Of a DNA stretch of 64,000 nucleotides, positions 25,669-61,073 are shown piece by piece. Source of the stretch: Leptogorgia sarmentosa (Eukaryota). The DNA lies in the NCBI GenBank assembly GCA_964658305.1, contig OZ210885.1, positions 2,914,001 to 2,978,000 of the forward strand. The letters are read 5' to 3'. The translations under genes and the position numbers were made by a program. The notes beneath the pieces were generated by a model. It was not told the origin of the DNA. It saw only the letters and a list, made by a program, of their open reading frames with translations, and searched no databases. Numbering within the stretch: the first letter of the stretch is position 1; every line of letters begins with the position of its first letter.

Positions 25669-26498
25669 TTACATTTACACGAATATTATAATTCAGTAGG
25701 ACGTATTCGCACCAGAAGTGCATGAATTCTGCTGCTTTTCTCACGGATATTCTCTGTTTAGGTAAGTCTCATTTTTGGTGCCTGATTTACATGCATGTTT
25801 TAAAGACATGCATGAGTGTTGGTTAGACTATTCTGCCTTAACTTAAGTCATGACAAACGATCGATTTTTCTTCACGTTTAATCTCTCTTTTAAAAGCAAA
25901 ACGAATCTATCTTTTAATACGACGCCCGAAAAAATAGTCCCCGCCCCTTATACCAATGTCAAATATTCACTTCCGGTTATCCGTGATTGTAGTAAATGAA
26001 TGACGTATCATTGACATTTGAGATTACTACCATATTAGGATGCATGCAAGGATGATAGACACTAAGGCACTAGTTACAGTGATAGATGTATTCTGGAGTA
26101 AAGCTTGTCTTTGTGGTTAAATAATAAATATAAATAACGTAAAGGATATAATTATATTACAGTGATTTAAAATATTATATAAAAAATATCAATTTTTACA
26201 TCCTTTACAACGAGTATTATTATAAGAACCAGGCAATGGATGAGCTATTATAAAGCTATATATACATTTTACTTGTTTTTAAATCTACCACTCGCATATC
26301 ACGGGCTGGAAACCGTGGTATTTGAAAAATTAATTACACACCTGTGTAATTTGAATTTGAGGTATATAATAATATTTTTGGAGAAAACGCGGGAGTATTC
26401 AGTCCAAATGTGTTTATAGGGACGTTGGGAAACACTCCTTAATGCAAAATAAATGCAAAATAATAAACATTTGATACGTTTAATTCACTATTATATAG

Positions 26499-29400
26499 CT
26501 AGTTGCCTCCAGGGTGATGTATTTCATGAGCGCATAAATGTTTTCCAAAATATTTACGCAGGTATTTGAGCTGTTTTGGCACTATTCTTACCACCTGAAT
26601 TTTAATCAAACCGCTCACCGGAAAGCTTTCCAAACTCACAGGCTCGTGTTTTTGGTTGTCAATTAAGACAATATCTTTCCGTTCAGGATGTTTGGAAACC
26701 TGCATTTCCAGACAGTGCTTGAAAATAGTACCGCCATCGTTTTGCGTGTAGACATACACCAAAAGACCACCCTCCCCTTTCAACTTCTTTTGTCCTTCTC
26801 GTAGCTCTTTTTCGAAATTTTGACGTTTAGGCTCGCCGATTATTTCCTCATGAAGTACTGTAATGTACTTTTCTCTTTGTAAGAAATTCAAAAATTCAGT
26901 GCATCTCAATTCACGAGACTCAGTACGAAGGTCAAGACATAATTGCTCGTGTTTTTTCCCCCATTCTTTTTTTTTAAGGTAGGCGTGCTCTACTCTTCTT
27001 AGTGTTTCCCGTAGAAATATATAATTTGTAACCCTTCTCGGACAAATATATTTTGCCAAGGCAAAAAAATTGTCCTGAGCACATGATGCGGGACATCGTA
27101 TTGGCGCAGATGGTGTTGCTTGGTAGGGCTCCTGAGAAGTGGAGAAGAAAATGTTATTAAAATTACTTTTCAATCAATCACATTACTCACCAAAATATCA
27201 TATATTTACATTTTTGAATTGCTAAATTTGAACTCACCTTTTGTTCTTCTCCAGTTTGTCCTTTGGACTTTTCCATGTTTTCCACTGGTCGCCTCCGGTT
27301 TTGTTCTTCATATCTGTAAAGAGAGTTCATCGAAATATTTATTACTTGGCATTTTGATAAACACATTTATCTTCAAAACACAACCCTCACAAATAAAGCA
27401 ACCTTCCAAACTATCAACCGATTTATTGTACATATCGCATACCGGGTAATGATTGAAATCTATATTTAATGTACAGACTGCGTGCACGATAGTTAATGAT
27501 TTAAGAAAACAAACTGACTGCTCATTACAATTTAGTGATTTAAAAGCAATTAATGGGATCAAACGATCAAACGATCTTCTCGCCCGTATTTACAGGTCCG
27601 TAACTCCATCATTCCTTAGCACTAGAATGAGTGACAGATGAAAAAGAGGCCACTGAGTAAACAACTACCAAGGTGTAAACATATCACACTAGTCTATCCC
27701 ATGCACTCATGATGACATCATAGCTTATAAAAGACTTCGGAAGGTAATAATGACAAGTAAAACGAAAAGAGCATAAGTTTTCAAGCAGGTGTCTCTCCCT
27801 GCTTCTTCGTCGTTTTCTTCAAAGAAGAAAAATGCCTCAGCTCATGAAATTCAAATTCATTTGGAACATAATATTTGTGGAAAAATTGTCACCAATGCCG
27901 AGACAGTTTTAAAGTCTGTTACCCTGGACCCATTGACAGACAGATCTAAATGTCGGGAAAGGAAATTAAGCATAACATGCACCCTGTAAGCCGGAAAGAC
28001 CTACCCATCAGGGATATGAGGATATCATCAACTACGTGCATGCAGCAACGCTTCGCTAACATCAGTGAAAGAATGGGTCCATTTAGGCATCTATTGCAAT
28101 CTACATCACATAAACATGTCAATACTAGGTAAAGTGCTGTCAGTGCGTTCTATTTGTTCCTAACAACTTGCTATTTGGAATTATTTTGTTTTTACACCTT
28201 TTATGGTCCTCTGCTCCATCCTTTACGTCAGTCCCTCTATCTAATGCAGTCGGTTGTGCACCAATGTCTGTCGTTTCAGACAACCCTATAACACGTTCGG
28301 GAATCTAAAAACACAATTACTTTTGGTATAGTACTGATTCTATAAAAATTCCTAAAAAATGTTGGGGTGATAGCATAAAAAAGAACAATATAACAATAAT
28401 GTGCGTTTTATGATGTTTGGTATATTCTAATTTTTTAAATTCCAATATTTTTTTGTATCCGCATAGATTTTGCGTTATGCTAACGTTTGCTTGTTTTTGC
28501 GTTAATTACATTATGATTCGTTAATATTTAAAAATGATAAAAATACAGTCCTAAATTTACAAAAAAACATGAATTTACTGGTAAAAATATTGAATATTTA
28601 TTTATTTATATGTACCTCCATATCTAAATCCACGTTGTCTTTGCGGTGCACTGGAGTTTTCTCACTCATAATTGCACCATTCTCAGAATCCCTCTCTTCG
28701 TTAGTATTTCTGTTTGTTGAATACTGAAGCTAAACGAAATGACATTTTCAGAACACAGAATTTCATTGACATCATTTCATCGGAACCATTCTGTCGTCCT
28801 ATATTTGTAAATTTTAAGATAGTCTAGAAGTTGTTTTTGAAGAAGGTCAACGAACCGCACAATGTTCAAGACAAAATCCAGTGTTTTTTTATGATTGTCA
28901 ATTACACCAAACAATTAAGAAATTATTTGATGAGGTTTTTGTGATATGCGGAATTATCAAGGTCGAGGTAAGCCTTATAATCAGCCGAGCCGAATGTTTT
29001 ATCATACATTTGAAGAATAATAAACAAAGTATTAACACATGAAAAACTTTATTTATGATATAAGCATAATAAGCATTGCATTTGTCTGTGTTAATTAAAT
29101 AGATACCGCTTGCTAATCATCGCAGGCTCATTTTGCAGACAACTCAATCATCTGCTGGCAGATAACTGGATTTTCTGTAGGTTGCGTGAAGCTCTTAGCC
29201 AATCAAATTGCTATTACCAATTACAATGTATAATAACTTAAGTTACATGCAAAATAATATACAGTTAGCATTGCATTTGTAAATACATCGATACTGTACG
29301 TACCTGCTTTAATCGTTGGTGTTTTTCAACGAGTATTTTATTTTGCTTTCTTAGCGTTGTTACCTCCTTACAGAAGATACAGAAAGATTGTCAGTAACAA

Positions 29401-31416
29401 ATCACAAAATTCCTGCCACCCAATCAGTTATCAATGAGTTCGATTAATTGGTGCCAGTACCTAGTACGTACATTGATAAACTTCGAATTGGCTATCACTA
29501 ATACCTAATGAACTAGCTCTTCCTGTTGAATGTAGTAATTCATGCTACTGTAATTTGTTTAAGTGTGTGTCAGAAAGTCAAGGTTTATATATACTTCTTT
29601 CACCTTTTGCAAATATATAACCAAATCATGCTTTCCGACCATGCTCCTTAACCATGATCCTCAACCATGCCCTTGATCATGTTTCCTAACTAATGCTCTT
29701 TAACTGTGCTTTAACCAAAACTTACCGGGAATAATGTTCAAGACAAAATCCAGTATATGACTGTGCGCATGTTTTTTTATGAAAATAATTAAGAAATTAT
29801 TTGATGAGGTTTTTGTGATATGCGGAATTATCAAGGTCGAGGTAAGCCTTATCATCAGCCGAGCCGAATGTTTTATCATACATTTGAAGAATAATAAACA
29901 AAGTATTAACACATGGAAAACTTTATTTGACGTATAGGTAATAGTATGGTTTCGAGTGCAATTTGGAATTAACATGCACGAGTGAGTTTTCCAAAGTCCT
30001 CAAAATAGCACGAGTCCGAAGAACGAGTGCTATTTGAGAGTTTTGAGGTCTTTGGAAAACTCACGAGTGTATGTTATCCAAATTGCACGAGAAACCATAC
30101 TCTTACTTGTTAATAGTTTGCATAAAAGTATTTGAGACAATTGTAGTTTTAACTGTCTCAAAGCGAAATTTCACCGGCAGAGTTTTCTTGCTTAGTTTAT
30201 TTCACATTTTACAGCGATAACGGTTTCAAAAATTCACCCAAACACGTAACTTTTGTTAGTCTTGTTGGAGATAAACTTTTTTCCGTCATAAGAAAAAGCT
30301 AAAAGCTATATTTTCGACTCTAATTTGATTGGTTGAAAGTGATAACAATTGCACCGTGATAACACAAAATTGCACTGTGATAACATGTGCACGAAATTTT
30401 CACACTGTGATTACACAAAATTGCACTGTGATTACACAAAATTGCACTGTGATTACAGAAAATTGCACTGTGATTACACGAAATTGCACTGTGATTACAG
30501 AAAATTGCACTGTGATTACAGAAAATTGCACTGTGATTACACGAAATTGCACTGTGATTACACAAAATTGCACTGTGATTACAGAAAATTGCACTGTGAT
30601 TACACAAAATTGCACTGTGATTACACAAAATTGCACTGTGATTACACAAAATTGTACTGTGATTACAGAAAATTGCACTGTGATAACACGAAATTGCACT
30701 GTGATTACAGAAAATTGCACTGTGATTACAGAAAATTGCACTGTGATTACAAAAAATTGCACTGTGATTACAGAAAATTGCACTGTGATTTGGGATTAAC
30801 TGCACTGAAATGAACCAATTGGAGTCGAGTAATACTTTTATGTATATTAATAATGATATAATAAGCATTTGTCTGTGTTAATTAAATAGATACCGCTTGC
30901 TAATCATTGCAGGTTCATTTTGCAGACAACTCAGTCATCTGCTAGCAGATAACTGGATTTTCTGCATGTTGTGTGAAGCTCTTAGCCAATCAAATTGCTA
31001 TTACCAATTACAATGTATAATAACTTAAGTTACATGCAAAATAATACAGTTAGCATTGCATAAATTGTAAATACATCAATACTGTACGTACCTGCTTTAA
31101 TCGTTGGTTTCCTTCAACGAGTATTTTATTTTGCTTTCTTAGCGTTGTTACCTCCTTACAGAAGATACAGAAAGATTGTCAGTAACAAATCACAAAATTC
31201 CTACCACCCAATCAGTTATCAATGAGTTCGATTAATTGGTGCCAGGCCTTGTTCGTAAACTTCCAATTGGCTGTGATCACTAATAGCTAATGACCAGTAA
31301 TTCTTGCTACTATAATTTGCAGTAACATTGTAAAATATGTGCTGGCTAAATACACTGATGCATGTCTCCTTTAATTCTTGGTTTTCTACTGTCAGTTGCC
31401 TTTGCAACTGTTCAAC
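26499..31416 (-). CDS. Uncharacterised coiled-coil + putative papain-fold domain protein, paralogue C (start exon not found)
   Basis: Phase-compatible exons 31416-31354, 31154-31092, 29366-29304 (63 nt each), 28729-28616, 28304-28198, 27313-27238 and 27131-26499. The last two are homologous to exons of A and B. Confidence 0.65.
29943..30850 (+). mobile_element. Interspersed element with a one-sided 159-bp hairpin (29943-30101) and a 21-bp minisatellite; copies start at 44105 and 58649
   Basis: Interrupts the second copy of a duplicated intron segment (28861-29457 versus 29734-31243). No TIRs seen. Confidence 0.6.
30347..30789. repeat. 21-bp minisatellite AATTGCACTGTGATTACA(G/C)(A/G)A, about 21 units; 5 units shorter at ~44509-44846 and ~59053-59390
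   Basis: Directly visible. It explains the NCTVIT and CNHSAI ORFs. Confidence 0.95.
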
Positions 31417-31519
31417 CTTCAGAAGAGACAGACAGTCAGATTGTTACAAATCACAAAACCCAATCACTCATCAATGAGTTCGATTAATTGGTGTTCAATG
31501 TAGGTAATTCTTGCTACTG

Positions 31520-31946
31520 TGCCTTAACCAAACCTTAATCATGCTTTCATTGTGCCTTTACCATACCCTTATCCTGCCATTACCGTGCTCCTTAACTATG
31601 CTATTCAACCATGCTCATCAACCATTCTCCTTTAACCATTCTCCTTAACCATGCTTTAACTATGCCTTAATTGTACCTTAATCGTGCTGCTCAACTATGC
31701 TCCTCAACTGTGCTCTTTAACCATGCTTATGAGTTATGAAACAACTCTCTAACAATGTTCCTTAATTTACCATGCCTTAACTGTATCCTAACCATACCTT
31801 GACCATAATTTAACCGTCCCTTAATCATGCAAAAAACGGTGTCTCAACCATACCCATACTATGCCTTATAACCATCCCTTAACCGTACCTTCTTCACCAT
31901 ACCTTAACCATGCCTTAACAGTACCTTAACCATACCTTAACTATGC
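31520..31946. repeat. Degenerate ~11-bp satellite (CCTTAACCATG-like); copies at ~45577-46003 and ~60121-60547
   Basis: Repeated CCTTAACCAT/CTTAACTAT motifs. Confidence 0.8.
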
Positions 31947-34816
31947 ATAAATGAATAGAATGGGAGTGTTTGTGTTCTAGTTGGTGCGTAATGATTCGAT
32001 GATATTCAGCCCTATTAATATGCAATATAGCGATTAAATTGCCAAATATTCTGTACTGTAATGGATTACATATACTGAATCTATGTATTGACTATTGACA
32101 GACTAAGATCGACGATCACAACATTCTTAGTACATAATTATATCATTACTTACATTAACCTTTTCCAAATCCATATGTCGCAAAAGACCTCTGGCAAAAG
32201 ACAATGATATCTAAATAAATACAGACATATTCAAACAATTATCTGACATTATACATCAAAACGGAAATATTAAATTCCAAAATAATAATGAACCTCCTTA
32301 AACAGATAATGTTAATGTAATACTACTCCAATTACGCACTGTACTAACAATTCCAAAACTTCACACACAAAAATGTTTACAAATGACATTACATGGGTTT
32401 TTTTCGTTTTTTTCTTCAATACTATCTTCAATATTATTTCGATTACTCAGCATAAAAATCAGTGATCAGCGCTCTCACAACGAATTTTCAAAATTCCTTA
32501 GCGTGAGCTCCGGAATTCCTCAGATATTCCCAAAATTCCTTAAATGACTTGTTTATCCTTGCAACTACCCCCAAAGTACCCTGCAATCCCGTTCTTTTGC
32601 CTCTTGTTTTAAAAACAAGACTCAAATAGTTTCAAAATCGTTAATAAACACAATTTGTGAGGTACCTGAGCTTACTAAAGTATATACAAGATAAAATGGG
32701 ATAGAATGAGCAGTGGCGTAGCGAAGCCATTCCGATAGGGGTGGTGTAAAGCAAAATATTTTACCGACCTAAATAGGTTTGGGCACGACAGGGCCAGATT
32801 ATTTGGCGGGGAGGGCGAGTCTCACGAGACGCCACCATGGTTGGCGTCGAGCGAGAAAATTTTGTGAATTTAGAGCCTCTAGATCGCCGGAAACGGCCAT
32901 TTCAGAGTGTTAACCAAAGCCTTAACACTCAGAATAGAGTCTAGAGGTCTTAGATGTAGTACAACCACAGCTTGCGAACTAATCGCACACGGACATAGAC
33001 AACAGACATATACTTTTACATATTTTACTTTTCTACTCTCTCTGTGATTTAATGACATAAATTGAAAATTTACCGACCCTTTGGCTTCAAAACCGACCAC
33101 AATTCATTTACCGACCATTTTCAAAAAAATTGGGGGGGTGTCACACCCCCCACACCCCCCACACCCCCCCCCCCCCCCCCCTCGCTACGCCCCTGAATAC
33201 TACGCTGAATGTGTGCTTTACAAAGATATTTTAATTTGTGAATAAGACAGTACTCAATATATGTGCACTTGTCAATCTTTTACATTCTATATTCTCACTC
33301 AGCTTAGTGTTAGGCTATTGAAATTATGAAAATAGATCATTTTCAATACTCGCTGTTCACACAATTTGAACACAACTGATTTCAAAAGATAATTTCTTAT
33401 ATAATGTAGAACACGAATATGTGAATATTCTTAAATATATTGCAAAATTAGCTAAATAAATATCAAAGCACTAACTTGATTGTTGCGTTTAATATTCATA
33501 TTTAATTTCTAGGTTACAGACTCAATGTGACAATTTTGATGACAAAAGTGGTGTCTGACTGGCTTGCCTGTATATTAGAATGTGTCAAAGAGCCTTGCTG
33601 TCGATCAATCAATTATAAAAAGATACTGATAGCTCAGAATGAATCGAATTGTGAAATGTTGCATAATACGGTCCACAACTCTTCTCAGAAATCTTTACAA
33701 GCAAATTTTTCTTATGACCATGTTTATCTCAGTAATCCTCAAAAGGTAAAAATAATTCACTACGCATAAAGGTACTACGATTTGTCGAGCACAATTCGGA
33801 GTCTGGCGTATGTAATCGGGTGAACACGCGCGAGAAAGTCGCATTTCAAATTACGATTCAAACTTTACACCCAGGAATTACATGCAGAGGTCTAACTGTT
33901 GTACCCATTTTTGTGCGCATGCTCGGCAAGTTACTTGATGCGTACATCTGATTGGATGACGACCAAATTTGAACTTGCCGAGTTGATCATTTTTTAGCCA
34001 GGCCGCATTAAAAAAGTGGGCACATGAAAATGCCACTTTTTAATATTTAGTTAGACCTCTGTCTGATATATACTCTGTGCTCTTAACGAAGTAGAATGAT
34101 GGCATACGTCTTTTTTCATACGTCTGAATGCGAATTGTACCGACTAATCGTAGCGTGTAAACGTATCTTGAAAGTGCACATGTCTAAAATCTTGCACTAA
34201 CAAAGTGTAAAGATCAAGATCACATAATTGAAAAACGCACCATGACCAATGTCTCTTTGAATACTAAACGAATGTAAAAAACATTGGTTGGAAATAATTT
34301 GTTTCGTCAGATGTATTTGATAGAGTTCTAGAAAAAATCTTGAAAAATTTCAAATAAATCAACATCGTCTATAATAAGACGATGAACTTCCGTCGACTTG
34401 ACGAATTCTGATTTATCATTGAGGTGATGAGTTCACATGATGCCATACAATCGATGCCAGTCTATAGTATACTCTCGAATTATCTTTCCAGTATACAACA
34501 TCACCGAACATTTTTGTTCTCCTTATTTCGCATTAAACCTGTTTCATGCGAAACAGAATCTATTCGGTTTTTAGAAATTTTATTACCAAAAAGAATAAGA
34601 TTATCCAAGAATACATTATTAGTGTCCATTTATAGGAATACAATGAAAGCTGCTTTTCGAAGGTCCTAAATGGCAATATAAAAGGTAAGTGATATGCGAT
34701 GATCTCTTAGAGTCCATTTTGGGTCAAAGTATTTTTACTTTTAATTAATAGCTATAATAAACAACCTTAACGATCTCAAAATTTCAAAATCATCGAAGTT
34801 TGAAATAGAGGGATAT

Positions 34817-36183
34817 CAGGGCCTGCGCGAACGGAGGGAAAAGGGGGTATTATCCCCCCCCCCCCCCAATGATATGGCATATAGTGCCCTATTAATTCTT
34901 TCCAGTATAACTTGGACATTGAGAGGACAGTAGTAAATAGTGGTATTATCACTTATGAATTGGTGTTACGCACAGATTTCGCCGTTATAGTACCCTGCGA
35001 GCAGAGCCTTACAGTAAATACCAAGATTGGTAACAATAAAAATCAGGGCTGCCTGCAACTTCTTTCTGGGGCATGGGGCACCATCCCTCTTTCGGGGTAA
35101 GGTAATTTTATGCTCGATCGAATAACTCGATTATTGCATTTTGGGGCCCCTCAAAACATAGGTCCGGGGTAAATTGCCCATCCTCCTTAACGATGCGGTC
35201 GTGATAAAAATCAATATTGATCGCAAAACGTGTTTCGTGTGGATCAGAAACGTCAACAAAATGCGAACTGGGAACAGTAGTATATTCCAGTGCCAGGGCA
35301 TTGGGCCCGTGTATGTGGTGGCTTACAAGTTCAATATTCATTTATCTCAGCTTCGTGGAGCAGAATTTAGAAGTTATAGGCGCTCAACGCTGTCTGAAAT
35401 GGACATTTCCGGGTTTGTAGCAGGGATTATTCTAAGGTGCAGTGATAACCAATTTGTGCAGTGATAAATGAGAATTGTGCAGTGATAAAATACATTTTGT
35501 GCAGTGAGTAAAATATGTTATCCCATGGTTATTCATCATTTATTAGAATTTGGGAATAACTTTAAGCATATACAACAGCAATAGTTTCATAACTTTACAT
35601 ATTTTAGCAAAAAGCTAAATAGGAAAATAGGAAACAGTTTGATGTTCTGAATTGGGCAGTCAGACCTTTTCCAATACAACTTTATATTCACATATTTCTA
35701 TATTTTGTTGTGCTTTTGTGCAGTGATAAAATTTCCTTAGAATAATCCCTGGTTTGTAGAGAATTTAAATGTTCAATGGTGGCGCCTCGAACAGAACAAA
35801 ACAATTATACACACTAGAGAAATTTGGCCCCGCTAGTAAAAGTCCCTTTTCGTCTGAAAATCAGCGAAATTCATGCTGAAATTGCAGGAAGTCAAGTTTA
35901 GGGAGCTCAAAGATCAAACAAAATTTTGTTGGACCCCCTTTAACGTAGCTACATTTCTTTATTGTTTCATAATTATTTTCCTTTCCTTTCCATCCTTCCT
36001 ATTTTATAATGATATTTCCACCCTTCATTAAAGTCCCTTTTCGTGTTTGCCCCACTAAACAACCTTAAAAAAGGCCCTGCAAAGAATTTTGCTTTTTATG
36101 GTGCGATACAAAACACGTGACATCAACATGTGCACTTTTTATTGAATTGTACCCCCATTATGAAAATGGACGCGCCGGCCCTG
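34817..36183. mobile_element. hAT-type non-autonomous element in a cargo intron (copy at 48867-50235)
   Basis: TIR CAGGGCCTGCGCG / CGCGCCGGCCCTG with TSD AGGGATAT. Confidence 0.85.
35421..35751 (-). mobile_element. MITE derivative of the hAT at 1-2643 (copy at 49473-49803)
   Basis: TIR CAGGGATTATTCTAAGG at both ends, TSD GTTTGTAG, GTGCAGTGATAA subterminal repeats. Confidence 0.92.
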
Positions 36184-36265
36184 AGGGATATTATAAAATG
36201 ATATTATAACATCTATTCTAAGTAAAATAATAGTAGGCAGTAATAACATGAAGCACAGTTGAACG

Positions 36266-36590
36266 CAGGGATTATTCTAAGGAAATTTTATCACTGCACA
36301 AAAGCACAAAAAAATATAAAAATATGTGAATATAAAGTTGTGTTGGCATGGAAAAGGTCTGACTGCCCAATTCAGAACATCAAACTGTTTCCTATTTTCC
36401 TATTTAGCTTTTTGCTAAAATATGTAAAGTTATGAAACTATTACTGTTGTATATGCTTAAAGTTATTCCCAAATTCTAATGAATGATGAATAACATATTT
36501 TATTCACTGCACAAAATGTATTTTATCACTGCACAATTCTCATTTATCACTGCACAAATTGGTTATCACTGCACCTTAGAATAATCCCTG
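36266..36590 (+). mobile_element. MITE derivative of the hAT at 1-2643 (copy at 50318-50642)
   Basis: Same TIR, TSD GTTGAACG. The right end aligns to ~2415-2643. Confidence 0.92.
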
Positions 36591-38175
36591 GTTGAACGAT
36601 GAGCAGGTGAATTAAACCGTGTTGATTTAAACCGTCCTTTTTATTACAGCAAAAGATTGCGCTGATCTTTATAAGGAAGGTCACACAACAAATGGTGTTT
36701 ATTTCATTGATCCAGACGGCAAAGGCGCATTTAAAGTAAGATGTGATATGACGACATCAGGAGGGGGTTGGACGATCATTCAAAGACGTGTTGATGGTAG
36801 TGTAGATTTCTACCGTAACTGGAAAGATTACAAAAATGGTTTTGGTGATCCAACAGGCGAATATTGGCTTGGTCTGGACAAAATCAACCGACTAACAAAT
36901 GTCAGTACAAAAGTCATTCGATTCGACCTTTGGGACACAACAGGAAACACGAAGTACGCTGAATACAGCTTCTTTGCCATCGCTTCAGAAGATGCCAAAT
37001 ATAAATTGAGATTGGATACATATTCAGGTAACACAGTTTAAAGAACGAGACAATGGTTGACACTCAGTGGCGTAGCGAAGCCATTCCGATAGGGGGGGGT
37101 GTAAAGCAAAATATTTTACCGACCTAAATAGGTTTGGGCACGACAGGGCCAGATTATTTGGCGGGGAGGGCGAGTCTCACGAGACGCCACCATGGTTGGC
37201 GTCGAGCGAGAAAATTTTGTGAATTTAGAGCCTCTAGATCGCCGGAAACGGCCATTTCAGAGTGTTAACCAAAGCCTTAACACTCAGAATAGAGTCTAGA
37301 GGTCTTAGATGTAGTACAACCACAGCTTGCGAACTAATCGCACACGGACATAGACAACAGACATATACTTTTACATATTTTACTTTTCTACTCTCTCTGT
37401 GATTTAATGACATAAATTGAAAATTTACCGACCCTTTGGCTTCAAAACCGACCACAATTCATTTACCGACCATTTTCAAAAAAATAGGGGGGGTGTCACA
37501 CCCCCCACACCCCCCCCCCCTCGCTACGCCCCTGAGAATGAGCGACTTATCATCTCCTGAGCCGGACCGGAAGCGCACATTCGCGCAATTTATCAGAAAC
37601 TATAATTATGTAAATTAACTATAATCACCATTTCTTAAATTTTAGTTTGCTGTGACATGTGTTTCACAGGCATTTTACCACTAAGATAAAGAATTACCTT
37701 ATTATTAATTAGTAATTCTTTAGCTCAGGGCATTTTACCAAAGGCTTTTCTCACTGAGCTAAAGAATTACTGGAGAGAGTGGCTTTTCTCGAAATATTAA
37801 AATTCCTTAGAAAATTCCTTAAAAATTGAACTCCTTAAAAAAATCCTTAAAACTTTGCTAAATTCCTATTTCTGAGGAAAAATCCTTAGAAGTGAGAGCA
37901 CTGTCAGTGATAAAAATATATATTCAAGCAGCTGGGAAAATTGAGGAAAATTGAGGTGGAAAATTGCTGGAAAATTGAGGAAATTGCAACAGCTGGGAAA
38001 TTTGTGGCGCATGCGCTAGATTTGGCTTGCGTGGAATCCCACGAATAATGAACTCGCGCGCGAATTTCGAATGTCGTGGAAGCATAACAATAAGAAATTC
38101 CTATTCAAACTAATTAAATATCCATGATCCCGATGACGTCATTAGCAGTATATAATCCCCAGTGAACTCTTATCA

Positions 38176-38310
38176 GTTATCGACCTGGAACGAGGGGTAT
38201 TCCACAAAAAAATACCCCGAGGAATGAAATATTCCGAGGGCGCAGCCCGAGGAATATTTCATTCCGAGGGGTATTTTTTTGTGGAATACCCCGAGTGAAA
38301 GGTCGATAAC
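38176..38310 (+). repeat. 135-bp hairpin with CGAG/CGAG mismatches and a GCA loop (copies 52227-52361, 61338-61472)
   Basis: Arms are complementary except at the CGAG boxes and one GGAA/TGAA internal mismatch near the base. Confidence 0.9.
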
Positions 38311-39645
38311 AGATATATTATACCGAAAATTTTTCATCTTCGACACATTCTGTGTTTTGTCGGCCATGTTGCCAAGGAAATTGCCCGCAAAACAGGCCAG
38401 GCAGGAGGTCAAAATCCAAGTAGAGGGGAATATAAAGTGGAATTACCCTCCCAAGGTCAAATCGAGGGAAATACCGTAAAAAATCACACTATCACGTGGT
38501 ACAAATGCTGTTTTTTCATTGGACAATTTGAATTTGAGGTATAATATTATATAATAATATATATATCTGGAACGATAACATTCAGTCATTCAATGCGAAA
38601 AACGTGAAGCCTCGGTACTAGTCTTTTACGCGGTTTGGACGTCAGCCTCAGTCCCTCAAACGTCAAGTTTACGCGGTTTGGACGTCAGTTTCATTCCCCC
38701 TCTGCAAACCGTTACGCGGCCAGTATAAATGCGAACGCAATCAAGAAAAAAACATTTAAAAAATATCGCCAACGCAATGCAATACATTGTAGGAACAAAC
38801 TGTTTTGCTCCTAAAATTTATCGCATTGCGTTCGCTGTCAGAAAATGAAAGATAACCGATTCAGACGGTTTTTCTTTGTAAACCATAGCAGTATTTATTA
38901 GTATATAAATATTATAAGGTTGGCAAGTAAACAATAATGTGACTTACTACGGCTTACTAAAACAAGTCGAAAAAATCAACGTCTTGCCAACAAACGTCGC
39001 TAAAAAATAGCAGCCCCTACTTCTAGGATAGTGTTACTAAATACATACAACGTTGAACGTTTTTTGGCAACAAAACGAGTGAAAAAGTCGAAAAAATACG
39101 AAAAATTTCTTTCAATTTGCCGTGTCTCGAAGCTGGATGCCTTCTGACATCGCTGACGCGATCTTTTGTCGGTTTATTTATAACGAAGACAATGACGAAG
39201 ACAATGACGAAGACAATGACGAACACTTCTGTCGTGATACTTTTGTTGGCTTCACTTTTCGCTCTATGTTATCGTTCCAGATATAATATATAGAGTTCAC
39301 TGATAATCCCCTGCTTGATTTGGCCGCCATTTTGGGTCAATGTGCATCGTAGGCACTGAGCTATAAGAAGACTGGAGAGAGTGCACGCACTTTTTTTCAG
39401 ATAAAAGAGTGAAGCCAAAATAATGGCGTGGATTCATGTGATTCGTCATCATTCCATGACAGCACTTGCTCCGTCCTCATGGTATTTACCACTGACCAGG
39501 CTCAAATCTGAGCCCACTGCCGTTTTCACACCCCTGTCTGCGAGACTGCGTGCGCAGATACAAAAATATGGTTTGATTCCTCCACCCTCAAAAAATTGTA
39601 CTGTTCCCCAGAATTAAGACAATCGGAAGAAAGGACAGACACCAG

Positions 39646-39889
39646 GGGCCGGTTGTATCAAAGGCGTCAAGCTTAAGCGCTGGATAAGTCGAAAATATCC
39701 AACGAAATTATGAAGTATTGACTACAAGGAAACTAAACTTTTCTGTGTAAACATAACAACTATGCATAGAGATAGAACTACACATTTAGTTGATAAAATT
39801 TAAATTCAATTATTTACAAAATGAATAGAAGTGTTTTTAAAATTTTGCTTATCCACCGTTTAAGCTAAACGTCTTTGGTACAACCGGGC
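39646..39889. mobile_element. MITE with ~40-bp imperfect TIRs (copies in units 2 and 3)
   Basis: GCCGGTTGTATCAAAG...GGATAAG / CTTATCC...CTTTGGTACAACCGG. Confidence 0.65.
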
Positions 39890-41039
39890 AGAACGCGAGC
39901 ACATGGATTATGGAAATCGATGAGCAAAAACATGCGCGCGCAGCACAAATTATTGTTCGACCGCACCCCTCATTTTCTAAAATGACCTGGAGGTTGCGAA
40001 ATCCCCCCGGAATTATCATCCGGACAGAAACAAATCGAGATTTCGACTATACATAGTACCGCGCAAAAGACTGGGTCGAGTGAACTCTGGGAAATCCTTG
40101 TGACGTCAAGAATAGTGTGCTGACTCGCTGGCGCTCGGCAGCAATGAAACTGAAAACGTATTGTGACTTGTCAAGGACTACAGTTTACGGAGGCAAACAT
40201 TCTCGACAGTTCCACTGGTTGCCTCCGGATTCTTTCGTCTTCCGGTTTCTGTGAAAAGAGTTCATCAACATATTTACTTACTTAGCATTTTGATAAAGAA
40301 ATGTATCTTCAAAAACGTGTTAATTTGATAATATAGTTCCAAGCAACACAACCTTCACAACCTAACCTATATCAACTGATTTCATTGTTATCTCATACCG
40401 GGTAACTATTGAAATCCGCTAGTTTGTCAGAGCCGCCGCGCTCTTTTCCTTTTAAACTGATGGAAAACTATCACATCACACTAGTTTGAACTTTGCCTGA
40501 TTTACATGCATGTTTTAAAGACATGCATGAGTGTTGGTTAGACTATTCTGCCTTAACTTAAGTCATGACAAACGATCGATTTTTCTTCACGTTTAATCTC
40601 TCTTTTAAAAGCAAAACGAATCTATCTTTTAATACGACGCCCGAAAAAATAGTCCCCGCCCCTTATACCAATGTCAAATATTCACTTCCGGTTATCCGTG
40701 ATTGTAGTAAATGAATGACGTATCATTGACATTTGAGAACACTACCATATTAGGATGCATGCAAGGATGATAGACACTAAGGCACTAGTTACAGTGATAG
40801 ATGTATTCTGGAGTAAAGCTTTGTGGTTAAATAATAAATATAAATAACGTAAAGGATATAATTATATTACAGTGATTTAAAATATTATATAAAAAATATC
40901 AATTTTTACATCCTTTACAACGAGTATTATTATAAGAACCAGGCAATGGATGAGCTATTATAAAGCTATATATACATTTTACTTGTTTTTAAATCTACCA
41001 CTCGCATATCACGGGCTGGAAACCGTGGTATTTGAAATT

Positions 41040-46523: not shown

Positions 46524-49500
46524 CAGCGCTCTCACAACGAATTTTCAAAATTCCTTAGCGTGAGCTCCGGAATTCCTCAGATATTCCCAAAATTCCTTAA
46601 ATGACTTGTTTATCCTTGCAACTACCCCCAAAGTACCCTGCAATCCCGTTCTTTTGCCTCTTGTTTTAAAAACAAGACTCAAATAGTTTCAAAATCGTTA
46701 ATAAACACAATTTGTGAGGTACCTGAGCTTACTAAAGTATATACAAGATAAAATGGGATAGAATGAGCAGTGGCGTAGCGAAGCCATTCCGATAGGGGGG
46801 GTGTAAAGCAAAATATTTTACCGACCTAAATAGGTTTGGGCACGACAGGGCCAGATTATTTGGCGGGGAGGGCGAGTCTCACGAGACGCCACCATGGTTG
46901 GCGTCGAGCGAGAAAATTTTGTGAATTTAGAGCCTCTAGATCGCCGGAAACGGCCATTTCAGAGTGTTAACCAAAGCCTTAACACTCAGAATAGAGTCTA
47001 GAGGTCTTAGATGTAGTACAACCACAGCTTGCGAACTAATCGCACACGGACATAGACAACAGACATATACTTTTACATATTTTACTTTTCTACTCTCTCT
47101 GTGATTTAATGACATAAATTGAAAATTTACCGACCCTTTGGCTTCAAAACCGACCACAATTCATTTACCGACCATTTTCAAAAAAATTGGGGGGGTGTCA
47201 CACCCCCCACACCCCCCACACCCCCCCCCCCTCGCTACGCCCCTGAATACTACGCTGAATGTGTGCTTTACAAAGATATTTTAATTTGTGAATAAGACAG
47301 TACTCAATATATGTGCACTTGTCAATCTTTTACATTCTATATTCTCACTCAGCTTAGTGTTAGGCTATTGAAATTATGAAAATAGATCATTTTCAATACT
47401 CGCTGTTCACACAATTTGAACACAACTGATTTCAAAAGATAATTTCTTATATAATGTAGAACACGAATATGTGAATATTCTTAAATATATTGCAAAATTA
47501 GCTAAATAAATATCAAAGCACTAACTTGATTGTTGCGTTTAATATTCATATTTAATTTCTAGGTTACAGACTCAATGTGACAATTTTGATGACAAAAGTG
47601 GTGTCTGACTGGCTTGCCTGTATATTAGAATGTGTCAAAGAGCCTTGCTGTCGATCAATCAATTATAAAAAGATACTGATAGCTCAGAATGAATCGAATT
47701 GTGAAATGTTGCATAATACGGTCCACAACTCTTCTCAGAAATCTTTACAAGCAAATTTTTCTTATGACCATGTTTATCTCAGTAATCCTCAAAAGGTAAA
47801 AATAATTCACTACGCATAAAGGTACTACGATTTGTCGAGCACAATTCGGAGTCTGGCGTATGTAATCGGGTGAACACGCGCGAGAAAGTCGCATTTCAAA
47901 TTACGATTCAAACTTTACACCCAGGAATTACATGCAGAGGTCTAACTGTTGTACCCATTTTTGTGCGCATGCTCGGCAAGTTACTTGATGCGTACATCTG
48001 ATTGGATGACGACCAAATTTGAACTTGCCGAGTTGATCATTTTTTAGCCAGGCCGCATTAAAAAAGTGGGCACATGAAAATGCCACTTTTTAATATTTAG
48101 TTAGACCTCTGTCTGATATATACTCTGTGCTCTTAACGAAGTAGAATGATGGCATACGTCTTTTTTCATACGTCTGAATGCGAATTGTACCGACTAATCG
48201 TAGCGTGTAAACGTATCTTGAAAGTGCACATGTCTAAAATCTTGCACTAACAAAGTGTAAAGATCAAGATCACATAATTGAAAAACGCACCATGACCAAT
48301 GTCTCTTTGAATACTAAACGAATGTAAAAAACATTGGTTGGAAATAATTTGTTTCGTCAGATGTATTTGATAGAGTTCTAGAAAAAATCTTGAAAAATTT
48401 CAAATAAATCAACATCGTCTATAATAAGACGATGAACTTCCGTCGACTTGACGAATTCTGATTTATCATTGAGGTGATGAGTTCACATGATGCCATACAA
48501 TCGATGCCAGTCTATAGTATACTCTCGAATTATCTTTCCAGTATACAACATCACCGAACATTTTTGTTCTCCTTATTTCGCATTAAACCTGTTTCATGCG
48601 AAACAGAATCTATTCGGTTTTTAGAAATTTTATTACCAAAAAGAATAAGATTATCCAAGAATACATTATTAGTGTCCATTTATAGGAATACAATGAAAGC
48701 TGCTTTTCGAAGGTCCTAAATGGCAATATAAAAGGTAAGTGATATGCGATGATCTCTTAGAGTCCATTTTGGGTCAAAGTATTTTTACTTTTAATTAATA
48801 GCTATAATAAACAACCTTAACGATCTCAAAATTTCAAAATCATCGAAGTTTGAAATAGAGGGATATCAGGGCCTGCGCGAACGGAGGGAAAAGGGGGTAT
48901 TATCCCCCCCCCCCCCCCCAATGATATGGCATATAGTGCCCTATTAATTCTTTCCAGTATAACTTGGACATTGAGAGGACAGTAGTAAATAGTGGTATTA
49001 TCACTTATGAATTGGTGTTACGCACAGATTTCGCCGTTATAGTACCCTGCGAGCAGAGCCTTACAGTAAATACCAAGATTGGTAACAATAAAAATCAGGG
49101 CTGCCTGCAACTTCTTTCTGGGGCATGGGGCACCATCCCTCTTTCGGGGTAAGGTAATTTTATGCTCGATCGAATAACTCGATTATTGCATTTTGGGGCC
49201 CCTCAAAACATAGGTCCGGGGTAAATTGCCCATCCTCCTTAACGATGCGGTCGTGATAAAAATCAATATTGATCGCAAAACGTGTTTCGTGTGGATCAGA
49301 AACGTCAACAAAATGCGAACTGGGAACAGTAGTATATTCCAGTGCCAGGGCATTGGGCCCGTGTATGTGGTGGCTTACAAGTTCAATATTCATTTATCTC
49401 AGCTTCGTGGAGCAGAATTTAGAAGTTATAGGCGCTCAACGCTGTCTGAAATGGACATTTCCGGGTTTGTAGCAGGGATTATTCTAAGGTGCAGTGATAA

Positions 49501-51954
49501 CCAATTTGTGCAGTGATAAATGAGAATTGTGCAGTGATAAAATACATTTTGTGCAGTGAGTAAAATATGTTATCCCATGGTTATTCATCATTTATTAGAA
49601 TTTGGGAATAACTTTAAGCATATACAACAGCAATAGTTTCATAACTTTACATATTTTAGCAAAAAGCTAAATAGGAAAATAGGAAACAGTTTGATGTTCT
49701 GAATTGGGCAGTCAGACCTTTTCCAATACAACTTTATATTCACATATTTCTATATTTTGTTGTGCTTTTGTGCAGTGATAAAATTTCCTTAGAATAATCC
49801 CTGGTTTGTAGAGAATTTAAATGTTCAATGGTGGCGCCTCGAACAGAACAAAACAATTATACACACTAGAGAAATTTGGCCCCGCTAGTAAAAGTCCCTT
49901 TTCGTCTGAAAATCAGCGAAATTCATGCTGAAATTGCAGGAAGTCAAGTTTAGGGAGCTCAAAGATCAAACAAAATTTTGTTGGACCCCCTTTAACGTAG
50001 CTACATTTCTTTATTGTTTCATAATTATTTTCCTTTCCTTTCCATCCTTCCTATTTTATAATGATATTTCCACCCTTCATTAAAGTCCCTTTTCGTGTTT
50101 GCCCCACTGAACAACCTTAAAAAAGGCCCTGCAAAGAATTTTGCTTTTTATGGTGCGATACAAAACACGTGACATCAACATGTGCACTTTTTATTGAATT
50201 GTACCCCCATTATGAAAATGGACGCGCCGGCCCTGAGGGATATTATAAAATGATATTATAACATCTATTCTAAGTAAAATAATAGTAGGCAGTAATAACA
50301 TGAAGCACAGTTGAACGCAGGGATTATTCTAAGGAAATTTTATCACTGCACAAAAGCACAAAAAAATATAAAAATATGTGAATATAAAGTTGTGTTGGCA
50401 TGGAAAAGGTCTGACTGCCCAATTCAGAACATCAAACTGTTTCCTATTTTCCTATTTAGCTTTTTGCTAAAATATGTAAAGTTATGAAACTATTACTGTT
50501 GTATATGCTTAAAGTTATTCCCAAATTCTAATGAATGATGAATAACATATTTTATTCACTGCACAAAATGTATTTTATCACTGCACAATTCTCATTTATC
50601 ACTGCACAAATTGGTTATCACTGCACCTTAGAATAATCCCTGGTTGAACGATGAGCAGGTGAATTAAACCGTGTTGATTTAAACCGTCCTTTTTATTACA
50701 GCAAAAGATTGCGCTGATCTTTATAAGGAAGGTCACACAACAAATGGTGTTTATTTCATTGATCCAGACGGCAAAGGCGCATTTAAAGTAAGATGTGATA
50801 TGACGACATCAGGAGGGGGTTGGACGATCATTCAAAGACGTGTTGATGGTAGTGTAGATTTCTACCGTAACTGGAAAGATTACAAAAATGGTTTTGGTGA
50901 TCCAACAGGCGAATATTGGCTTGGTCTGGACAAAATCAACCGACTAACAAATGTCAGTACAAAAGTCATTCGATTCGACCTTTGGGACACAACAGGAAAC
51001 ACGAAGTACGCTGAATACAGCTTCTTTGCCATCGCTTCAGAAGATGCCAAATATAAATTGAGATTGGATACATATTCAGGTAACACAGTTTAAAGAACGA
51101 GACAATGGTTGACACTCAGTGGCGTAGCGAAGCCATTCCGATAGGGGGGGGTGTAAAGCAAAATATTTTACCGACCTAAATAGGTTTGGGCACGACAGGG
51201 CCAGATTATTTGGCGGGGAGGGCGAGTCTCACGAGACGCCACCATGGTTGGCGTCGAGCGAGAAAATTTTGTGAATTTAGAGCCTCTAGATCGCCGGAAA
51301 CGGCCATTTCAGAGTGTTAACCAAAGCCTTAACACTCAGAATAGAGTCTAGAGGTCTTAGATGTAGTACAACCACAGCTTGCGAACTAATCGCACACGGA
51401 CATAGACAACAGACATATACTTTTACATATTTTACTTTTCTACTCTCTCTGTGATTTAATGACATAAATTGAAAATTTACCGACCCTTTGGCTTCAAAAC
51501 CGACCACAATTCATTTACCGACCATTTTCAAAAAAATAGGGGGGGTGTCACACCCCCCACACCCCCCCCCCTCGCTACGCCCCTGAGAATGAGCGACTTA
51601 TCATCTCCTGAGCCGGACCGGAAGCGCACATTCGCGCAATTTATCAGAAACTATAATTATGTAAATTAACTATAATCACCATTTCTTAAATTTTAGTTTG
51701 CTGTGACATGTGTTTCACAGGCATTTTACCACTAAGATAAAGAATTACCTTATTATTAATTAGTAATTCTTTAGCTCAGGGCATTTTACCAAAGGCTTTT
51801 CTCACTGAGCTAAAGAATTACTGGAGAGAGTGGCTTTTCTCGAAATATTAAAATTCCTTAGAAAATTCCTTAAAAATTGAACTCCTTAAAAAAATCCTTA
51901 AAACTTTGCTAAATTCCTATTTCTGAGGAAAAATCCTTAGAAGTGAGAGCACTG
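46524..51954. mobile_element. Loaded hAT MITE, unit 2; composite element 46768-51585 (MITEs 46768-47245 and 51117-51585)
   Basis: Same TIRs and TSDs (TCAGTGAT, AGAATGAG) as in unit 1. Confidence 0.93.
47563..51079 (+). pseudogene. Captured PAN + FReD exons, unit 2 (47563-47795, 48686-48734, 50702-51079)
   Basis: Translations identical to unit 1. Confidence 0.88.
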
Positions 51955-52804: not shown

Positions 52805-53409
52805 CAGTGCTCTCACTTCTAAGGATTTTTCCTCAGAAATAGGAATTTAGCAAAGTTTTAAGGATTTTTTTAAGGAGTTCAATTTTTAAGGAATTTTCTA
52901 AGGAATTTTAATATTTCGAGAAAAGCCACTCTCTCCAGTAATTCTTTAGCTCAGTGAGAAAAGCCTTTGGTAAAATGCCCTGAGCTAAAGAATTACTAAT
53001 TAATAATAAGGTAATTCTTTATCTTAGTGGTAAAATGCCTGTGAAACACATGTCACAGCAAACTAAAATTTAAAAAATGGTGATTATAGTTAATTTACAT
53101 AATTATAGTTTCTGATAAATTGCGCGAATGTGCGCTTCCGGTCCGGCTCAGGAGATGATAAGTCGCTCATTCTATCCCATTTTATCTTGTATATACTTTA
53201 GTAAGCTCAGGTACCTCACAAATTGTGTTTATTAACGATTTTGAAACTATTTGAGTCTTGTTTTTAAAACAAGAGGCAAAAGAACGGGATTGCAGGGTAC
53301 TTTGGGGGTAGTTGCAAGGATAAACAAGTCATTTAAGGAATTTTGGGAATATCTGAGGAATTCCGGAGCTCACGCTAAGGAATTTTGAAAATTCGTTGTG
53401 AGAGCGCTG
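52805..53409 (-). mobile_element. Empty 605-bp copy of the CAGYGCTCTCAC MITE, inserted only in unit 2
   Basis: TSD AAAAAAAC (52797-52804, 53410-53417). Single internal AGAATGAG site. Units 1 and 3 show the empty target (~38750, ~61910). Confidence 0.95.
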
Positions 53410-61059: not shown

Positions 61060-61073
61060 TCAGTGACAGTGAT
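61060..61073. other. hAT excision footprint TCAGTGA-CAGTGAT
   Basis: Both TSD copies are present, each missing one inner base. The unit offset changes by 5439 = 5437+8-6. Confidence 0.88.

What the first reader, a model, noticed from the sequence alone, without database searches (positions are those of the whole stretch)
32711..37534. Bacterial-style composite transposon built from two MITEs, carrying fibrinogen-gene exons
Seen: two direct ~480-bp copies of one MITE bracket 3869 bp of gene DNA. The only matching 8-bp TSD (AGAATGAG) lies outside the pair, and the empty host MITE at 52805-53409 has this 8-mer once. The cargo is three stop-free, phase-compatible exons (PAN, linker, FReD N-half) with introns. 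Known: hAT elements make 8-bp TSDs, and FReD proteins are invertebrate pattern-recognition lectins. Inference: two MITEs in introns of a donor gene moved as one unit using their outer ends, a route for exon shuffling of immune domains. An alternative is recombination of a MITE-bearing circle into a resident MITE.
Basis: partly seen in the sequence, partly recalled or inferred. Interest (0 to 1): 0.85.

Follow-up and report, generated by a model that had tools for sequence, protein, structure and literature searches.

The report
MITE-pair macrotransposon carrying lectin-gene exons
Two near-identical copies of a small hAT-type mobile element enclose 3.9 kb holding three exons of a PAN-fibrinogen lectin gene, and the 4.8-kb block sits as one insertion with a single 8-bp target duplication inside another mobile element; it likely moved as one unit, a "macrotransposon" of the kind known from maize.

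Summary
MITE-L (32711-33195) and MITE-R (37065-37534) are direct, near-identical and complete. Neither has its own target-site duplication (TSD), but the pair is flanked by AGAATGAG on both sides. Removing the 4824-bp block plus one TSD copy rebuilds a 605-bp "host" MITE that differs at 1 nt from an intact copy at 52805-53409. Four other hAT-type MITE insertions nearby each have their own perfect 8-bp TSD.

The cargo holds three spliceable, phase-compatible exons: PAN, linker and FReD N-half. No FReD C-half lies anywhere in the window, so the cargo is a gene fragment.
- The nested structure occurs twice, in units A and B of a ~14.5-kb tandem array.
- Unit C carries a hAT excision footprint at the host-MITE site.
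- The cargo introns hold further MITEs.

Best reading (0.55) is transposase-mediated macrotransposition, as documented for maize Ac/Ds and Tam3L. Homology-directed copying into a resident solo MITE (0.28) is not excluded. No whole genome was available, so no donor locus was found, and short-read contigs did not confirm the one junction probed closely. This is a new member of a known kind; exon shuffling is untested.

The parts
32459..32466 (.). Left copy of the host MITE's own 8-bp TSD (TCAGTGAT), unit A
   Evidence: The same 8-mer lies at 37904-37911.
32467..32710 (-). Left part of the interrupted 605-bp host MITE (terminus CAGCGCTCTCAC). Its last 8 nt (32703-32710, AGAATGAG) are the left TSD of the composite.
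   Evidence: 100% match to 53165-53410 in reverse; rebuilt
32711..33195 (+). MITE-L, 485 bp, complete hAT-type non-coding element with both termini
33196..37064 (+). Cargo: 3869 bp of a PAN-FReD lectin gene (three exons plus introns), found only here and in unit B within the window
   Evidence: (blastn)
33512..33745 (+). PAN-domain exon; phase 0 at its 3' end; acceptor inferred
   Evidence: Pfam PAN_1 5e-5. 52.8% identity to residues 17-105 of P0083 (Dendronephthya), E 3.5e-28. Splice sites.
34636..34684 (+). Linker exon (EYNESCFSKVLNGNIK plus 1 nt), phase 0 to 1
   Evidence: AG/GTAAGT boundaries. Matches the linker of P0030, E 0.003.
35421..35751 (+). Internal MITE 1 in a cargo intron (terminus CAGGGATTATTCTAAGG), own TSD GTTTGTAG
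   Evidence: Shares termini with the hAT element ending at 2643.
36266..36590 (-). Internal MITE 2 of the same family, inverted, own TSD GTTGAACG
36650..37028 (+). FReD (fibrinogen C-terminal domain) N-half exon, phase 1 to 1, followed by a GT donor
   Evidence: Pfam Fibrinogen_C 1.5e-46, profile positions 2-131 of 221. tblastn; splice sites.
37065..37534 (+). MITE-R, 470 bp, direct orientation, complete
37535..37903 (-). Right part of the interrupted host MITE. Its first 8 nt (37535-37542, AGAATGAG) are the right TSD of the composite.
   Evidence: 99.7% match to 52805-53173 in reverse
46524..51954 (+). Second copy of the whole nested structure in tandem unit B (composite at 46768-51585)
   Evidence: 12 differing columns of 5439: 2 substitutions and 3 C-run indels. 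Junction strings found twice each.
52805..53409 (+). Intact 605-bp host-family MITE, inserted only in unit B, own TSD AAAAAAAC. Serves as the uninterrupted reference.
   Evidence: Units A and C are empty at this site.
61060..61073 (.). Unit C: TCAGTGA+CAGTGAT, two TSD copies each missing one inner base. This is the pattern of a hAT excision footprint at the host-MITE site.
   Evidence: A never-occupied site with a single TCAGTGAT is seen in a contig of run X4 (record 9).

Best explanation
A 4824-bp block made of two complete, direct, near-identical hAT-type MITEs and the 3.9 kb of PAN-FReD gene DNA between them lies as a single insertion with one 8-bp target duplication inside another MITE, and it was likely put there by macrotransposition, in which a hAT transposase would have paired the outer 5' end of MITE-L with the outer 3' end of MITE-R and moved the pair and the DNA between them as one element.

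Shown directly:
- The four termini, the outer-only TSD and the exact rebuilding of the host MITE.
- The intact exon structure of the cargo, and the absence of the FReD C-half from the window.
- Duplication of the whole nested structure in a second tandem unit.

Inferred:
- A donor PAN-FReD gene acquired two sister MITE copies in introns about 3.9 kb apart, perhaps by a local hop.
- A transposase supplied in trans (none with these termini is in the window) used the outer ends.
- The block inserted into a host MITE already sitting in an ancestral ~14.5-kb unit, and that unit then duplicated to give A and B.

The exons now lie inside two nested sets of transposon ends. Whether they are transcribed or spliced into anything is unknown.
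For: - Only the outer 8-mers match (AGAATGAG). The inner flanks AATACTAC and TTGACACT do not.
- Excising the composite plus one TSD copy rebuilds a 605-bp element identical in length to the intact copy, with 1 nt different. That copy holds the 8-mer once.
- Intact copies of that family were joined across the site (32702 to 37535, skipping 4832) in 4 of 4 runs laid.
- Internal controls: 4 of 4 other hAT-type MITE insertions in the neighbourhood have their own perfect 8-bp TSD. TSDs have therefore not decayed here.
- hAT activity at this locus is recent. The host MITE is present in A and B, there is a footprint in C (61060-61073), and a never-occupied allele occurs in a contig of another individual. 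A new host-family insertion is private to unit B. A hAT transposase ORF lies at 1-2352 (Dimer_Tnp_hAT, 8.4e-5).
- L and R share letters at 33035/37390 and 37454 that none of the family contigs laid there show (table 3; L is identical to R at the matching position). This fits two sister copies carried over whole from one donor. It fits less well with hybrids made with an unrelated resident copy.
- The same diagnostic was used to establish the maize Wc Tam3L macrotransposon: an element without its own TSD, and a matching 8-bp duplication at the outer ends (10.1101/082677, passages read). Excision of Ac macrotransposons leaving a modified 8-bp TSD is reported in PMC9910405 (passages read).
Against: - No donor locus, second insertion site or macro-excision footprint was seen. 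The only second copy has identical flanks and comes from tandem duplication.
- The structure alone is equally produced by homology-directed copying from a two-MITE donor into a resident solo MITE.
- No autonomous element with these termini is in the window. The hAT at 1-2643 has different termini, CAGGGATTATTCTAAGG.
- Post-insertion gene conversion between L and R could also explain their shared rare letters, and contigs drop rare variants, so that argument is weak.
- The junctions rest on the assembly alone. No contig crossed the MITE-L|cargo junction.
Confidence: 0.55

Rival explanations
1. Homology-directed origin. A solo MITE first inserted into the host MITE and made the AGAATGAG duplication. 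A break or gap inside it was later repaired from a donor gene carrying two MITEs, by synthesis-dependent strand annealing or gene conversion with template switching. Alternatively, a circle of MITE plus cargo, popped out by recombination between the donor's two MITEs, recombined into the resident MITE. No macrotransposition is needed.
For: The outcome (outer TSD, no inner TSDs, direct MITEs) is identical to what is seen. The MITE family is high-copy, giving many homologous partners: summed contig depth over the MITE is roughly 100-fold that of neighbouring unique contigs in 4 of 4 runs, although the tool warns that depth is not a copy number. The 485-bp arms are long enough for recombination.
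Against: - L and R both carry letters at 33035/37390 and 37454 that differ from all family contigs laid there. A single crossover with a typical resident copy would leave one of the two MITEs with the common letters at these positions.
- Gap repair would need a gap spanning these positions while keeping homology on both sides.
- Established knowledge (recalled): hAT excision removes the whole element, leaving no MITE homology at the break.
- No solo-MITE allele was seen, but the runs could not show one.
Confidence: 0.28
2. Assembly artefact. The genome really holds a solo MITE in the host MITE and, elsewhere, a gene with two MITEs. The assembler walked host-MITE-cargo-MITE-host through the collapsed repeat.
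For: No independent contig crossed the MITE-L|cargo junction. The A and B copies differ almost only at homopolymers. Several window letters in the MITEs are not seen in the short-read contigs of the best-holding run.
Against: The window has no N and resolves ~14.5-kb units that are 99.4-99.9% identical. By inference this points to long reads that easily span 485 bp. The same path would have to be mis-walked twice, in A and in B. L-specific and R-specific differences are consistent between A and B.
Confidence: 0.07
3. The gene fragment is native here, and two MITEs inserted independently into its introns, their TSDs having since decayed.
For: MITEs often land in introns. Two others did so inside this cargo.
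Against: The sequence outside the pair is the two halves of one 605-bp MITE, split at a single AGAATGAG. The neighbouring TSDs are all perfect. No FReD C-half or other exon of the gene lies anywhere in the 64 kb. Unit C lacks the whole block.
Confidence: 0.02

Closest known systems
Tam3L (hAT) macrotransposon that created the maize White Cap locus (10.1101/082677, passages read)
   Same: Two hAT elements bracket gene DNA. The bordering element lacks its own 8-bp duplication. [quoted passage not shown] The transposed segment was afterwards amplified as tandem repeats.
   Different: There the elements are ~4.5-kb transposons, the cargo is whole genes (Ccd1 and neighbours), and the donor locus 1.9 Mb away is known. 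Here the ends are 470-485-bp non-coding MITEs, the cargo is three exons, the target is another MITE, the host is a cnidarian-like animal genome, and the donor is unknown.
Ac/Ds macrotransposons of maize (Huang and Dooner 2008 and Wang et al. 2022, seen only as citations in PMC9910405; PMC9910405 and PMC3260210, passages read)
   Same: Closely linked direct elements use the outer 5' and 3' ends and carry intervening DNA. The reported sizes are 10.3 kb and 28 kb in PMC9910405 and up to 100 kb in PMC3260210. Excision leaves a modified 8-bp TSD, like the footprint in unit C.
   Different: Those events were followed genetically with a known transposase source. Here mobility is inferred from one static structure.
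Bacterial composite transposons (Tn5 or Tn10 type, and MITE-flanked units in bacteria). Recalled, not tested.
   Same: Two copies of one small mobile element bracket cargo and move by their outer ends, with the duplication outside the pair.
   Different: IS elements encode their own transposase and belong to other families. Here the ends are non-coding and would depend on a eukaryotic hAT transposase in trans. The likeness is an analogy, not membership.
Pack-MULE / Pack-MITE transduplication (PMC2817404, passages read)
   Same: Non-autonomous DNA elements carrying host gene fragments that can then be moved and amplified.
   Different: In those elements the fragment lies inside a single element between one pair of termini, usually without introns kept in order. 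Here there are four complete termini and a colinear stretch of exons and introns.

Membership tests
hAT-superfamily non-autonomous element (MITE) | 8-bp target-site duplication | tested here: met
   Met for the pair (AGAATGAG on both sides) and for 4 of 4 other MITE insertions nearby. L and R taken singly have none.
hAT-superfamily non-autonomous element (MITE) | Short terminal inverted repeats, small size, no coding capacity, many copies | tested here: met
   Termini match at 13 of 14. Size is 470-485 bp. Only short stop-to-stop ORFs were listed and they were not family-searched. There are 4 full copies and 1 partial copy in the window. Contig depth is about 100-fold above unique neighbours in 4 of 4 runs (depth is not a copy number).
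hAT-superfamily non-autonomous element (MITE) | A cognate autonomous hAT element with matching termini | tested here: not met
   The only hAT transposase ORF in the window (1-2352) ends in CAGGGATTATTCTAAGG-type termini. These match the internal MITEs at 35421 and 36266, not L and R. The rest of the genome could not be searched.
hAT macrotransposon (Ac/Ds, Tam3L type) | Two complete elements in direct orientation, each lacking its own TSD, with one matching 8-bp TSD at the outer ends | tested here: met
hAT macrotransposon (Ac/Ds, Tam3L type) | An uninterrupted target sequence holding the 8-mer once | tested here: met
   The intact paralogous host MITE at 52805-53409 shows 1 difference in 605 and holds AGAATGAG once. 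The joined form is seen in 4 of 4 runs. It is a paralogous copy, not the orthologous empty site.
hAT macrotransposon (Ac/Ds, Tam3L type) | A donor locus with the two elements at cognate sites, or a macro-excision footprint | not testable with these tools
   No genome is held. Earlier scan notes gave 0 hits. Metagenome scans gave 0 hits and only 88%-identical exon relatives.
hAT macrotransposon (Ac/Ds, Tam3L type) | Mobility of the unit: further copies at other sites with different TSDs | tested here: not met
   Within the window the only other copy (46768-51585) has identical flanks and TSD and comes from tandem duplication. The genome outside the window is untested.
Bacterial composite transposon | Flanking insertion sequences that encode the transposase | tested here: not met
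   L and R are 470-485-bp elements. The ORF listing shows only short stop-to-stop ORFs in them (74 aa on the minus strand), which were not sent to any family search. By inference they encode no transposase.
PAN-FReD lectin gene (complete) | A whole fibrinogen C-terminal domain | tested here: not met
   Only profile positions 2-131 of 221 are present. tblastn with 7 full-length relatives found no C-half anywhere in the window at E up to 1e-3. The cargo is a fragment.

The most novel reading that the evidence does not exclude
A cnidarian-type genome holds a recently active hAT system in which a pair of sister MITEs lifted three intact, phase-compatible exons of an immune-type PAN-fibrinogen lectin gene. 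The pair dropped them into another still-mobile MITE. The exons now ride inside two nested sets of usable transposon ends, and the structure was then copied by tandem duplication. This would be a natural animal case of DNA-transposon macrotransposition as a working route for moving exon sets.
Probability: 0.45. Interest if true: 0.6.

Novelty: new member of a known kind. Interest (0 to 1): 0.45.

Why it matters
Macrotransposition by paired hAT elements is well documented in maize. I found no report of a MITE pair carrying exons in an animal. This rests on library searches for macrotransposon/macrotransposition, for composite transposon with MITE, hAT and target site duplication, for macro-transposon, pair of MITEs and two MITEs, and for hAT, MITE, exon shuffling and cnidaria. 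The library is incomplete, so this is not proof of absence.

If the transposition reading holds, this locus shows that abundant non-coding MITEs sitting in introns can mobilise colinear exon blocks with their splice sites intact. That is exactly what domain shuffling in expanded lectin families would need. The locus also offers filled, footprint and never-occupied states side by side, which makes it a good place to study hAT activity in this lineage.

Tried and rejected
- Whole-genome search for the donor: no genome is held.
- Earlier scan notes, by FReD exon, by the word 'fibrinogen' in this genome, and by MITE DNA: nothing.
- Sequencing runs: 18 listed, 15 holding part of the stretch, 3 holding half or more of its words, from 5 studies. 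No RNA holder was listed, so expression and splicing could not be examined.
- Read laying on 33150-33560 to find a MITE-less donor allele or a junction contig. No contig covered 33150-33191 because of the C-run. The first ~160 nt of the cargo proved to be other short high-copy repeats (33213-33263 and 33299-33352), so the loose ends there were uninformative. A diverged version (about 6-9%) of 33360-33528 exists in run X2 at similar depth. It is a paralogue and too diverged to be the immediate donor.
- Depth-based copy number of cargo against flank in X2 (cargo contigs 72-254, flank 229): too noisy, and the tool warns against this use.
- Protein searches with the FReD exon. The 'longer' search had a best identity of 74% among the 120 listed, of 471 proteins with E up to 1e-20. 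The 'near' search had a best of 89-90% among the 120 listed, of 411. No identical or full-length protein of this organism appeared, so no donor gene model was found.
- Metagenome scan with a 29-nt MITE end: 0 hits.
- Metagenome scan with the FReD exon: 9 loci. The best two (L001, L002) are 88% identical in protein and 90-92% in DNA over the exon only, with unalignable introns.
- Phylogeny of units A, B and C around the site, to tell whether C lost 605 bp or the whole 5.4 kb: flanks are identical in A and B, with 2 substitutions private to C. There was no resolution.
- Identity of the tandem unit's own 224-aa ORF (26502-27173, minus strand): no Pfam family, no reliable Atlas hit and no homologue among longer proteins. 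Whether the composite lies in a gene is therefore unknown.
- Huang and Dooner 2008 and Wang et al. 2022 could not be read because they are not held.
- The coral CMITE paper (PMC2872659, abstract and section 17 read) describes piggyBac-related MITEs and a different phenomenon.

Full report
**Setting.** The window is eukaryotic with about 36% G+C, and no whole genome is held for it. The best protein relatives of its coding parts are anthozoan cnidarians such as Dendronephthya, Exaiptasia and Oculina. None of the 120 listed in either search is identical.

From about 25.8 kb onward the window is a tandem array of ~14.5-kb units:
- Unit A, 25779-40493.
- Unit B, 40494-55043.
- Unit C, 55044-63655, which is a short unit of 8612 bp.
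- The start of unit D.

- MITE-L (32711-33195, 485 bp) and MITE-R (37065-37534, 470 bp) are direct copies, 99.3% identical over 451 bp.
- Aligned with their flanks, they differ by one G-run length, one T/A substitution and the length of a CACACCCCCC/C-run. The same L-specific and R-specific states recur in unit B.
- Each copy has both termini, CAGTGGCGTAGCGA and TCGCTACGCCCCTG (13 of 14 complementary).
- The flanking 8-mers are AGAATGAG|L|AATACTAC and TTGACACT|R|AGAATGAG.
- The sequence outside the pair is the two halves of a second element, a 605-bp "host" MITE with termini CAGCGCTCTCAC and CAGTGCTCTCAC.
- Deleting 32711-37542 rebuilds exactly 605 bp, with one difference from the intact inverted copy at 52805-53409. 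That copy holds AGAATGAG once.
- Contigs of four public runs join 32702 to 37535, skipping 4832 bp. The uninterrupted host family is therefore real and multi-copy.

**Internal controls.** Four other hAT-type insertions in the neighbourhood each have their own perfect 8-bp duplication:
- The host MITE in unit A: TCAGTGAT.
- The intact host-family copy in unit B: AAAAAAAC. Units A and C are empty at that site.
- Two ~330-bp MITEs of a third family inside the cargo, at 35421-35751 (GTTTGTAG) and 36266-36590 (GTTGAACG).

Duplications are thus well preserved here. The lack of individual duplications at L and R, together with a perfect one around the pair, is informative.

**The cargo**.
- The PAN exon, 33512-33745, has Pfam PAN_1 at 5e-5. 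It is 52.8% identical to residues 17-105 of a 386-aa Dendronephthya PAN-FReD protein (E 3.5e-28).
- The 49-nt linker exon, 34636-34684, has AG and GTAAGT boundaries, and its peptide resembles the linker of a Dendronephthya relative.
- The FReD N-half exon, 36650-37028, has Fibrinogen_C at 1.5e-46, covering profile positions 2-131 of 221.
- The intron phases fit (0, 1, 1).
- One caveat: an in-frame TAA sits two codons upstream of the inferred PAN acceptor, and similarity to the relative runs through it.
- tblastn with seven full-length relatives found only this N-half, in units A and B, and no C-half anywhere in the 64 kb. The cargo is therefore a gene fragment.
- At DNA level the cargo has no other copy in the window.

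1. The whole nested structure is present twice. The copy at 46524-51954 in unit B differs from unit A at 12 of 5439 alignment columns: 2 substitutions and 3 C-run length changes.
2. Unit C lacks both the host MITE and the composite. At the site it reads TCAGTGA+CAGTGAT (61060-61073), which is two duplication copies each missing one inner base. This is the classic look of a hAT excision footprint. A 308-nt contig of another individual (run X4, depth 8.9) joins 32458 directly to 37904, giving a never-occupied site with a single TCAGTGAT. Filled, footprint and empty states therefore all exist.
3. A hAT transposase ORF lies at 1-2352 (Dimer_Tnp_hAT, 8.4e-5). Its element ends at 2643 with the termini of the cargo's internal MITEs, not those of L and R.
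4. The cargo introns also hold other high-copy repeats, at 33213-33352 and 33852-34239.

**Mechanism.** The anatomy is the one used to define hAT macrotransposons:
- In the maize Wc locus, a Tam3L element without its own 8-bp duplication pairs with a second element at the far border that shares a matching outer duplication. The transposed block was then amplified in tandem (10.1101/082677, passages read).
- Ac macrotransposons of 10-28 kb excise and reinsert, and they leave a modified 8-bp duplication (PMC9910405, passages read). A size of up to 100 kb is cited in PMC3260210.

I therefore favour transposase-mediated movement of the pair (0.55). The likely steps, all inferred, are:
1. Two sister MITE copies came to lie ~3.9 kb apart in introns of a PAN-FReD gene.
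2. A transposase supplied in trans used their outer ends.
3. The block inserted into a host MITE in an ancestral unit.
4. That unit duplicated to give A and B.

One weak extra point bears on this. At 33035/37390 and 37454, L and R carry letters that no laid family contig shows. That fits two sister copies moved whole. It fits less well with a crossover involving a typical resident copy. However, contigs drop rare variants, and later conversion between L and R would give the same picture.

**Rivals.**
- Homology-directed copying into a resident solo MITE, by gap repair with template switching or by integration of a MITE-plus-cargo circle, gives the same end product. It cannot be excluded without the genome (0.28).
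- An assembly mis-walk through the MITE repeat is unlikely (0.07). The window has no N, it resolves near-identical 14.5-kb units, and the structure appears twice with consistent L/R differences. Even so, no independent read data confirmed the junctions: no contig crossed the MITE-L|cargo junction in the narrow lay, and the cut tables of the wider lay listed none across the other three.
- A native gene with two independent MITE insertions is contradicted by the rebuilt host MITE.

**Limits.**
- The donor locus, any other composite copies, expression and splicing could not be examined.
- The flanks of A, B and C are too alike to tell whether unit C lost the 605-bp host MITE alone or the whole 5.4-kb nested element.
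- The recipient unit's own 224-aa ORF has no recognisable relatives. It is unknown whether the composite lies in a gene, so the exon-shuffling idea remains a possibility rather than a finding.

**Verdict.** This is a real, cleanly delimited composite insertion. It is best read as a natural hAT MITE-pair macrotransposon carrying lectin-gene exons in a cnidarian-type genome. It is a new member of a known kind, of moderate interest.

Noticed in passing
window 61060-61073 (unit C), compared with 32459-32466 and 37904-37911: Unit C carries TCAGTGA+CAGTGAT where units A and B have the host MITE. This is two target-duplication copies each missing one inner base, the look of a hAT excision footprint. 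A contig of another individual (X4) shows the never-occupied site with one TCAGTGAT.
   Followed up: yes
window 52805-53409: An intact 605-bp host-family MITE is inserted only in unit B (TSD AAAAAAAC; units A and C are empty there). It lies 8.2 kb from the footprint in unit C, in inverted orientation. It could be the element excised from unit C after a local hop, but any family copy could be the source.
   Followed up: partly
window 1-2643: A hAT transposase ORF of 784 aa runs off the left end of the window (Dimer_Tnp_hAT, 8.4e-5). The element's 3' terminus at 2643 (…CCTTAGAATAATCCCTG) matches the termini of the two ~330-bp MITEs inside the cargo (35421-35751 and 36266-36590).
   Followed up: partly
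window 25779-64000: Tandem array of ~14.5-kb units A to D, 99.4-99.9% identical. Older, more diverged units lie at 13.5-22 kb. Each unit holds a 222-224-aa minus-strand ORF (for example 26502-27173) with no Pfam family and no homologues found.
   Followed up: partly
window 30298-30933, 44460-44990, 59004-59400: A 21-bp minisatellite, open in several frames, differs in copy number between units. An 11-bp periodic repeat lies at 31513-31955.
   Followed up: no
window 33213-33263, 33299-33352 and 33852-34239: Short stretches of the cargo introns have very high contig depth in all runs laid, and they occur in either relative orientation in other contigs. They are further dispersed repeats. The first lies only about 17 nt from the end of MITE-L.
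   Followed up: partly
window 23011-23176 (wider 22925-23224): A partial internal copy of the L/R MITE, 98% identical over 166 bp, sits within a more diverged related stretch. It may be an older or longer family member.
   Followed up: no
window 33360-33528, in run X2: Contigs of the best-holding run show a second version of the intron and PAN-exon start, with 6 differences plus 4 gaps over 102 nt and 8 differences over 85 nt, at a depth similar to the exact version. It is a paralogous PAN-FReD gene in the same sample, too diverged to be the immediate donor.
   Followed up: partly
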